64,000 bases of DNA from Eledone cirrhosa (Eukaryota), in assembly GCA_964016885.1 (NCBI GenBank), contig OZ024743.1, positions 356,810,001 through 356,874,000 of the forward strand, given 5' to 3'. Of the stretch, positions 53,100-53,665 are shown in pieces (the first letter of the stretch is position 1; each line of letters opens with the position of its first letter). The notes under the pieces are model-generated. The model saw only the letters and a program-made list of their open reading frames with translations. It did not search any database and was not told where the DNA came from. The position numbers and the translations under genes are program-made.

Positions 53100-53665
53100 T
53101 AGGATATGAAGGTTGAACTGGGAGGTAGGTTTCAGTTCCCCCGAGTTGTTCAACATCCCTGTGACTAATTATAGTACTTTGGTCTGAAGGGATAAGAATG
53201 ATAATCCTGATTGAATTCACAGTCTCATGGGAAATAGAGTGTGACAAAACCTTTGAGTGAAAGAGTGCCAAGTATCAAGAACTTGTGCGGAAGTGGTTGG
53301 TAGGCATGGCCATTTCCAGTCGAGGTGGGCTGCAGGAGAATCCCGGTTCACTCGGTTTGGAGAATGCTCACTGGCATTGGAGTGGCAGGAAGAGAGAAAA
53401 TGGCTGAAGTTCACAGGATGGGGGAGTCAGCAGAAAGGGCCTCTGGTTAGCTTTGGAACAGGAGAGAGGAGATAAGCTGGAAGCCAAGAGGAGAAGATAG
53501 ACAGTGATTTGGTCACCATTGCTGACTCGTCAGCGTGAGGGTGTTACGGTTGAGGTTCGAAACACCCAAGGAACGTTGGGACACCGTCTGATGATATCAA
53601 CATCTCCTGGCCAAGGCCATGTTCACCGAAAGTGGATGAATGTGAGGCATCTTGAAGATGTAATT
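53100..53665 (+). mobile_element. Decayed 3' end of a HERO/NeSL-like non-LTR element (restriction-like endonuclease and 3' UTR)
   Basis: Across frames: DMKVELGGRFQFP, TSL*LIIVLWSE..IILIEFTVSWE..FE*KSAKYQEL, WPFPVEVGCR, matching the RPD/ELTVPWE/KY/PVEVGCRG pattern. Confidence 0.75.
53539..53601 (+). ncRNA. Candidate hammerhead ribozyme with non-circularly permuted strand order
   Basis: GGGTGTT/ACGGT ... GAAACACCC ... ACCGT-CTGATGA: 6-bp stem III and 5-bp stem I in correct register around the core; stem II degenerate. Confidence 0.55.

What the first reader, a model, noticed from the sequence alone, without database searches (positions are those of the whole stretch)
53539..53601. Hammerhead core with reversed strand order (C-B-A) in the 3' UTR of a HERO-like retrotransposon
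Seen: all three hammerhead strands lie within 63 nt. Strand C is GGGTGTT/ACGGT (53539-53550; GUU triplet, predicted cut after 53545). Strand B is GAAACACCC (53559-53567), pairing 6 bp with GGGTGT to give stem III. Strand A is ACCGT-CTGATGA-TATCAAC (53583-53601), pairing 5 bp with ACGGT to give stem I; TCAA/TTGA could give a degenerate stem II. Established: natural HHR types I, II and III are the circular permutations A-B-C, B-C-A and C-A-B, and non-LTR ribozymes are usually HDV-like and at the 5' end. The order C-B-A is not a circular permutation and would need a pseudoknotted or intermolecular fold, which standard descriptors would miss. Inference: a possible new hammerhead topology acting in 3' end processing or RT recognition. 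This copy is decayed and stem II is weak.
Basis: partly seen in the sequence, partly recalled or inferred. Interest (0 to 1): 0.9.

Follow-up and report, generated by a model that had tools for sequence, protein, structure and literature searches.

The report
Split-core hammerhead RNA in LINE tails
This is a decayed copy of a jumping gene whose tail keeps, across many distant relatives, every catalytic letter of the hammerhead self-cutting RNA in an unusual wiring; it likely cuts the element's RNA, which may then be joined into a circle and copied, but cutting is untested.

Summary
The three hammerhead blocks sit where stated, in the tail of a 5'-truncated, decayed non-LTR retrotransposon (HERO-type; the label is recalled). 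They are not chance. Among relatives picked by protein alone, 47 of 68 carry the core in this order, against 0 of 68, 0 of 62 and 0 of 1360 controls.

The order itself is known: type SGC, cleavage-validated by Eckert 2023. The strand before GAAA pairs with a strand upstream of the cleavage block. The strand after CUGAnGA pairs far upstream, so two helices split A9 from G10.1 at a predicted four-way junction. A kink-turn-like motif extends stem III. On a sequence-only alignment all six helices covary: 91.5% paired, 32 of 38 pairs with double changes. The canonical stem II is at chance. My searches found this wiring undescribed.

Copies that reach the 5' UTR mostly carry a 3' end fused upstream and run through the cut site, which suggests circular templates. 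One two-family tandem argues for template jumps. Cleavage is untested. The scan already noted this on other genomes.

The parts
53100..53663 (+). 5'-truncated, decayed copy of an RLE-type non-LTR retrotransposon (family A; HERO-type by recall), between microsatellites
   Evidence: Related copies align from about 53102 to the (AT)n run. Protein relatives are RT + zf-RVT elements of fish and lancelet, closest to R2 proteins in the PDB.
53100..53507 (+). Broken C-terminal ORF remnant (endonuclease region); its stop codon lies inside helix Y
   Evidence: Three-frame translation with stops and frameshifts; homology via a sister copy.
53483..53499 (+). Helix X, 5' strand (outer 53483-53491, inner 53496-53499)
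   Evidence: Pairs with 53595-53611: 8/9 and 4/4 in this copy, 9/9 and 4/4 in the family majority. All 9 pairs show double changes.
53500..53523 (+). Hairpin Y; its loop is a 6-nt palindrome in the family majority, broken by one change (53513) here
   Evidence: 89% paired across families; 6 of 8 pairs left in this copy.
53524..53528 (+). True stem II 5' strand (positions 10.1-10.5), upstream of the cleavage block
   Evidence: Partner scan peaks at offsets -20/-19; 93% paired with compensatory changes; 4/5 here, 5/5 in the family majority.
53531..53538 (+). Helix P0 5' strand plus the GA of the kink-turn-like loop
   Evidence: P0 94% paired; GA at this place in 14 of 22 families.
53539..53550 (+). 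Cleavage block: stem III strand, U16.1 (53544), H17 (53545), predicted cut 53545/53546, stem I strand
   Evidence: U16.1 invariant in 21 of 21. The cut position is inferred by analogy.
53554..53567 (+). Stem II 3' strand, GAAA core and stem III strand
   Evidence: GAAA invariant in 21 of 21 (rows had been selected by the parser).
53568..53578 (+). 3-nt bulge plus GA (kink-turn-like) and P0 3' strand
   Evidence: GA in 17 of 22 families; the A is invariant in the alignment although the parser did not ask for it.
53583..53594 (+). Stem I strand and CUGAUGA core (C3 = 53588)
   Evidence: Stem I 96% paired, all 5 pairs with double changes; N7 varies freely.
53595..53611 (+). Helix X, 3' strand, starting directly after A9

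Best explanation
The stretch is the tail of a dead retrotransposon copy that holds a conserved, covarying six-helix RNA with a complete hammerhead core, which likely self-cleaves in active elements and likely serves to cut head-to-tail transcripts to unit length so that they would be rejoined into circles and reverse-transcribed round. Shown: the order 5'-X, Y, stem II strand, P0, cleavage block, GAAA block, P0, CUGAnGA block, X-3'; covariation of all six helices; head-to-tail junctions in genomic copies; an intact cut site in inserted copies. Inferred: (1) X and Y stack and meet the core at a four-way junction between A9 and G10.1, and a kink-turn folds the stem III extension back so that the upstream strand reaches stem II. 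(2) The RNA cleaves after H17. (3) In a partial tandem, two cuts release a 3.6-3.7 kb unit whose ends are the two halves of one ribozyme. These halves are held by four helices (X, II, P0, III; about 25 bp), which would favour self-ligation or RtcB ligation. (4) The element's RT/endonuclease primes at a fixed internal site 90-120 nt past the cut and rolls round, giving mostly truncated dead copies like this one and sometimes more-than-unit copies that are new masters. My odds: fold 0.95, cleavage in active families 0.8, circle route 0.5. This copy is probably inert: a single, partly damaged ribozyme in a 560-bp fragment.
For: Core in SGC order in 47 of 68 protein-selected loci with at least 200 nt downstream; controls 0/68, 0/62, 0/1360. 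Of the 21 misses, 19 are damaged or cut-off homologues and one has the core about 620 nt further on (by eye). Sequence-only alignment of 21 sequences: 91.5% of cells paired, 32 of 38 pairs with double changes, 0/500 shuffles, slid controls 35-42%. Unconstrained folding recovers X, Y, P0 and III in the 3 non-window sequences folded. Natural SGC ribozymes cleave (Eckert 2023). In this genome 4 of 6 family-B copies with a 5' UTR have their own 3' end fused upstream at the same junction, reaching 25-809 nt past the cut. In metagenome loci 11 of 12 hits of the 5' UTR motif directly follow a 3' end; the 12th lies inside an ORF. The two repeats of L091 share 6 of 14 variants, against 0-3 with 15 other copies. 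L226 and L228 span the junction but end inside the ORF with no remainder in the next 8-9 kb, like permuted sub-unit copies. A circle with more-than-unit RT was proposed for Penelope-like elements and circles were shown for retrozymes.
Against: No cleavage, ligation or circle was observed; the RNA runs found are contigs only and cannot show ends. There is no pile-up of 5' ends at the cut: family B 1 of 27 at -4 and one internal deletion junction at +7; family A 3 of 29 within 12 nt. There are no indel scars at the cut: 2 events in 61 family-A copies against a window mean of 6.7, and 0 in 28 family-B copies. Both results fit a circle or an uncut RNA equally. L117 is a two-family tandem whose switch lies at or after the 3' end/5' UTR junction, not at the cut; one circle cannot give this, though an assembly chimera is possible. 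The second testable tandem (L227) shares 0 of 2 variants. Metagenome tandems may be collapsed assemblies. Splitting A9 from G10.1 was assumed not to occur by Eckert 2023 and could slow catalysis. Three loci of one family share G12A, though at a CpG. Family-A copies decay neutrally: core 0.87 vs non-core 0.83 conserved, 15 of 52 with an intact core. Shuffle controls ignore relatedness, and my parser preselected stems I and III.
Confidence: 0.5

Rival explanations
1. The ribozyme is active but the RNA stays linear. Partial tandems arise when RT jumps end-to-end from the 5' end of one RNA to the 3' end of another, or when elements insert at their own 5' junction. The upstream ribozyme then trims host read-through RNA (as the R2 HDV-like ribozyme does), or cleavage limits element activity.
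For: L117 joins a family-X 3' piece (87-90% to L127) to a family-Y unit (81-90% to L162) at or just after the junction. R2 RT jumps end-to-end (review passage). Palindromic Y loops could pair two RNAs.
Against: The junction is the same in 4 of 4 family-B tandems, whereas jumps are, as I recall, usually ragged. No full-length copy starts at the cut (0 of 4). Most family-B copies sit in unrelated AT-rich sites rather than at the junction. The L091 repeats share private variants.
Confidence: 0.27
2. The fold is real but cleaves only slowly, or only in a kissing-loop dimer or with protein. It mainly serves as the RT-binding or dimerisation signal, and tandem formation is independent of cleavage.
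For: Inserted copies always contain the uncut site. A 6-nt palindrome lies in the Y apex in 17 of 22 families and 30 of 49 loci, against 86 of 978 control windows, and switches between several palindromes. Minimal PLE hammerheads cleave poorly as monomers.
Against: The letters kept are precisely the catalytic ones, with N7 and H17 free, in families only about 56% identical; a mere binding scaffold would not predict this. Five of 22 families lack the palindrome.
Confidence: 0.18
3. One reading: a compact 63-nt SGC hammerhead with stem II formed by the strand after CUGAnGA, cutting to make the element's 3' end.
For: The block order and stems I and III are as stated.
Against: That stem II is at chance. 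The strand after A9 is taken by helix X. Element 3' ends lie 90-120 nt past the cut.
Confidence: 0.03
4. Chance resemblance to a hammerhead core.
For: 4 of 100 window shuffles hold the bare spaced motif.
Confidence: 0.01

Closest known systems
Type-SGC hammerhead ribozymes (HRIMA-1 and variants; Eckert et al. 2023, PMC10085705; parts 1-5 of 8 read, supplements not read)
   Same: Order cleavage block - GAAA block - CUGAnGA block; all core letters; short linker from stem I into the stem II 3' strand; multiple pseudoknots.
   Different: There, CUGAnGA and its stem II strand are contiguous (the stated block assumption), the RNAs tested are about 80 nt, and they come from metatranscriptomes with no known host genome. 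Here the stem II 5' strand lies upstream of the cleavage block, helices X and Y split A9 from G10.1, stem III is extended through a kink-turn-like loop, and the host is an animal retrotransposon.
Hammerheads in the pseudo-LTRs of Penelope-like elements (Cervera and De la Pena 2014, PMC4209133; passages read)
   Same: A hammerhead in the terminal repeat of an autonomous retroelement, head-to-tail partial tandems, and a proposed circle with more-than-unit reverse transcription.
   Different: PLE ribozymes are minimal type-I forms, with one extra nucleotide between 9 and 10.1, that likely work as dimers; PLEs have a GIY-YIG endonuclease. Here the ribozyme is large and rewired and the protein is R2-like.
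Animal non-LTR retrozymes (Cervera and De la Pena 2020, PMC7229834; passages read)
   Same: Tandem hammerheads release monomers that become circles, with RtcB more efficient than self-ligation in vitro.
   Different: Non-autonomous, 170-400 nt, type I hammerhead. Here a 3.6-3.7 kb unit encodes its own RT.
R2 5' HDV-like ribozyme (review passages, PMC13708176)
   Same: A pseudoknotted self-cleaving RNA in an RLE-type non-LTR element.
   Different: Different ribozyme class; it lies at the 5' end and defines the 5' junction. Here the ribozyme is at the 3' end and its cut site is not an insertion boundary.

Membership tests
Hammerhead ribozyme | Core CUGAnGA, GAAA and NUH | tested here: met
   12 of 12 in this copy; 47 of 68 protein-selected loci.
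Hammerhead ribozyme | Stems I, II and III flank the core and covary | tested here: met
   96%, 93% and 97% paired, with double changes in 5/5, 3/5 and 4/6 pairs; stem II uses an upstream strand.
Hammerhead ribozyme | Site-specific self-cleavage after H17 | not testable with these tools
   No raw RNA reads; needs an in vitro assay.
Hammerhead types I-III (circular permutations) | Block order CGS, GSC or SCG | tested here: not met
   The order is S-G-C; no Rfam hit.
Type-SGC hammerhead (Eckert 2023) | Block order S-G-C | tested here: met
Type-SGC hammerhead (Eckert 2023) | Stem II 5' strand directly follows CUGAnGA (0-2 nt insert) | tested here: not met
   39% vs 39% shuffled. With one extra nucleotide, 50% vs 44% (168/5000 swaps), far below the 95% of the upstream partner.
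Kink-turn | C-stem, 3-nt bulge, tandem G.A / A.G, NC-stem (consensus recalled) | tested here: inconclusive
   GA on the bulged strand in 17 of 22 and on the other strand in 14 of 22 at fixed offsets; some families deviate; geometry and protein binding untested.
RLE-type non-LTR retrotransposon | Single ORF with RT, CCHC knuckle and C-terminal endonuclease; 5'-truncated copies | tested here: met
   Relatives carry RVT_1 and zf-RVT (zf-RVT just under its cut-off); best PDB hits are R2 proteins; truncations. The endonuclease motif was recognised by eye from recall; Pfam gave no hit for the 79-aa piece.
HERO clade | RT phylogeny groups with Repbase HERO references | not tested
   No named HERO reference among database names. 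The label rests on recall and on non-specific insertion, which fits the description in PMC4640811.
Circle-templated retroelements (retrozyme / PLE model) | More-than-unit head-to-tail copies spanning two ribozymes | tested here: met
   L091 and L227 in this genome; L117, L118 and L169 in contigs, units 3599-3733 nt.
Circle-templated retroelements (retrozyme / PLE model) | Circular unit-length RNA exists | not testable with these tools
   Only contigs available.

The most novel reading that the evidence does not exclude
A clade of autonomous R2-like LINEs replicates through self-made RNA circles. A hammerhead topology outside the six proposed permutations, with its core split at A9/G10.1 by a four-way junction, interlocks the two cut ends and ligates them, helped by a retrovirus-like kissing loop, and target-primed reverse transcription starts internally and rolls.
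Probability: 0.35. Interest if true: 0.92.

Novelty: new variant of a known kind. Interest (0 to 1): 0.8.

Why it matters
It would extend hammerhead architecture beyond the six block permutations, by showing that the core tolerates a whole inserted domain between A9 and G10.1. It would also place a non-circularly permuted ribozyme in animal genomes for the first time in the literature I searched. For transposon biology it would give an RLE LINE a 3' ribozyme and a Penelope-like, possibly circular, life cycle, contrary to the linear template model. That is testable with one transcription gel and one RNase R RT-PCR. A ribozyme whose halves stay interlocked after cutting could also be useful for making circular RNA.

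Tried and rejected
Rfam: nothing at gathering score in the window; only noise at E<=10 on a young copy.

Stem II after A9, with or without one extra base: rejected. My own first idea of an Eckert-type I-II helix (GTTG/CAAC, note) was dropped, because those strands belong to P0 and X.

Pile-up of 5' ends or scars at the cut: not found; one alignment showed a 3-nt deletion next to the cut in 1 of 24 copies. Ragged 3' ends reading into the 5' UTR were judged by eye and were inconclusive. No family-A tandem junction was found among loci L002-L090.

Viral contigs gave no relative. Prokaryote genome contigs gave 3 loci without a usable tail. Sequencing runs were contigs only and uninformative on ends.

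Literature: hammerhead + hero + retrotransposon 0 papers; hammerhead + HERO 35, the 20 listed irrelevant; SGC + permut only Eckert; 'A9 and G10.1' 0; junction/kink-turn and head-to-tail searches showed nothing on this RNA in their listings. Two 2026 reviews naming HERO have no 'hammerhead'. Subscription papers, Repbase reports and the Eckert supplements were not seen and could describe it.

Rows left out: L163 and L192 (longer or shorter spacers) from alignment A2; only the best 80 of 200 metagenome relatives were returned.

Full report
1. Observation. The three blocks are at the stated coordinates. Stem III pairs 6/6, stem I 5/5, and all 12 core letters are present. They lie in the tail of a 5'-truncated retrotransposon fragment (about 53100-53663) with a broken ORF remnant. 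The genome holds at least 40 related copies at 79-84% identity. Protein relatives are single-ORF RT elements of fish and lancelet, closest to R2 among solved structures. The name HERO is my recall and was not tested against references. In the window alone the spaced motif is only moderately unlikely (4 of 100 shuffles).

2. It is conserved. I selected relatives by protein only: 79 metagenome loci, from the best 80 of 200. A strict parser for the order cleavage block - GAAA - CUGAnGA with stems I and III hit 47 of 68 loci with at least 200 nt downstream. It hit 0 of 68 reverse complements, 0 of 62 coding stretches and 0 of 1360 shuffles. Of the 21 misses, 19 are recognisable damaged or truncated homologues, one has the core further downstream (by eye) and one shows nothing. 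A second, younger family (B) in the same genome has the same core with a completely different but paired stem I.

3. The order is known; the wiring is different. Eckert et al. 2023 (parts 1-5 of 8 read) describe this order as type SGC and show cleavage. They found it only in metatranscriptomes, and they assume that CUGAnGA and its stem II strand are contiguous. Here that stem II does not exist: 39% paired against 39% shuffled. A scan for the partner of the five bases before GAAA peaks 19-20 nt upstream of U16.1, restoring G10.1-C11.1 in 18 of 22 families. The strand after A9 pairs instead with a far-upstream strand (helix X). In most families X abuts a hairpin (Y), which abuts G10.1. Stem III continues through a 3-nt bulge with opposed GA steps (17 and 14 of 22 families) into helix P0. 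On a sequence-only MAFFT alignment of 21 sequences (20 of 22 family medoids plus the window), the six helices give 91.5% paired cells and 32 of 38 pairs with double changes. None of 500 shuffles reached the percentage paired, and slid controls gave 35-42%. Caveats: the parser preselected stems I and III, the structure was read from these same sequences, and the shuffles ignore relatedness. However, three or four different Watson-Crick pair types per column require repeated independent changes, and X, Y, II and P0 were not asked for by the parser. I infer a four-way junction at the A9/G10.1 step and a kink-turn; the geometry is untested. The Y loop holds a 6-nt palindrome in 17 of 22 families and 30 of 49 loci (chance 86 of 978), a possible kissing site.

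4. This copy. It differs from the family majority at 16 places in 53486-53611. Stem II is 4/5 paired, Y 6/8, and the loop palindrome is broken. Family-A copies decay neutrally: 15 of 52 keep the whole core, and core conservation is 0.87 against 0.83 elsewhere. It is most likely a dead-on-arrival insertion.

5. How it likely works. Inserted copies end 90-120 nt past the predicted cut and contain the uncut site, so cleavage does not make the 3' end. Of 6 family-B copies with a 5' UTR, 4 have their own 3' end fused upstream at one junction, extending 25, 42, 521 and 809 nt beyond the cut. In metagenome loci 11 of 12 hits of the 5' UTR motif follow a 3' end, though collapsed assemblies can inflate this. 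Units between two ribozymes measure 3599-3733 nt. The repeats of L091 share 6 of 14 variants against 0-3 with 15 other copies; L227 shares 0 of 2. Two copies span the junction yet stop inside the ORF with no remainder nearby. The simplest single account is the one proposed for Penelope-like elements (passages) and shown in part for retrozymes (passages): two cuts, joining into a circle, internal priming and rolling reverse transcription. The wiring suits this, because the two halves remain bound by four helices after the cut (inference).

6. Evidence against. Nothing here shows cutting. 5' ends do not pile up at the cut (1 of 27 at -4 in family B; 3 of 29 within 12 nt in family A), and there are no scars. 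L117 joins two families with the switch at or after the junction, not at the cut. That favours end-to-end template jumping (known for R2), self-targeted insertion, or an assembly chimera. RNA data were contigs only. I give the fold 0.95, cleavage 0.8 and the circle route 0.5.

7. Novelty. The RNA is built like a hammerhead and meets the sequence and stem tests. It fails the type-SGC test of a contiguous CUGAnGA-stem II block, so I file it as a new variant rather than an SGC member. Ten searches of the held library found no description of it (mostly listings only); subscription papers, Repbase reports and the Eckert supplements were not seen. The scan's own notes hold 42 findings in at least 6 genomes with these words, and the 8 shown reach the same reading. 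My structure and circle notes predate that look-up, and those notes are not independent evidence. One of them reports scars at the cut, which I tested and did not find here. Interest 0.8.

Noticed in passing
L091 4447-8200 (G000:C2:317446500+), also L093-L099, L105-L115, L199-L231: A second, younger family (B) of the same element type in this genome, at least 27 copies, including near-full-length partial tandems; good templates for bench tests.
   Followed up: yes
L117 1-5720: Head-to-tail tandem of two different families (70% identical), with the switch at or just after the 3' end/5' UTR junction.
   Followed up: partly
L226 1203-3976; L228 501-3511: Copies that span the head-to-tail junction but end inside the ORF, with no remainder within the next 8-9 kb; permuted insertions or later deletions.
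   Followed up: partly
L116 804-1670: A family-B copy with the 5' UTR piece inverted next to the truncation point, as in twin priming.
   Followed up: no
5' UTR start in L117, L118, L120, L121, L125, L136, L146, L161, L162, L172, L175, L091: A short motif 10-30 nt after the junction is far more conserved between families (86-90%) than the ORF (about 70%); a possible protein-binding or promoter element flanking the priming site.
   Followed up: partly
window 53483-53507: The 5' strands of helices X and Y overlap the last codons and the stop codon of the ORF, so translation could affect ribozyme folding.
   Followed up: no
L133, L134, L135: Three insertions of one family share a G12-to-A change; C11.1-G12 is a CpG, so independent decay is plausible.
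   Followed up: partly
L179 about 2250-2310: A family with a much longer 3' region, in which the same core lies about 620 nt after the ORF match.
   Followed up: partly
window 48935-49580 (- strand): Broken ORF fragments that look like another, RTE-type LINE (recalled resemblance, not tested).
   Followed up: no
window 16954-19297, 20199-21671, 43066-45928: Long strand-skewed minisatellites (periods 11-14, 26 and 29), amid many (AT)n/(AC)n runs.
   Followed up: no
L196, L197: Two tiny contigs of marine bacterial assemblies carry this animal retrotransposon, probably contamination.
   Followed up: no
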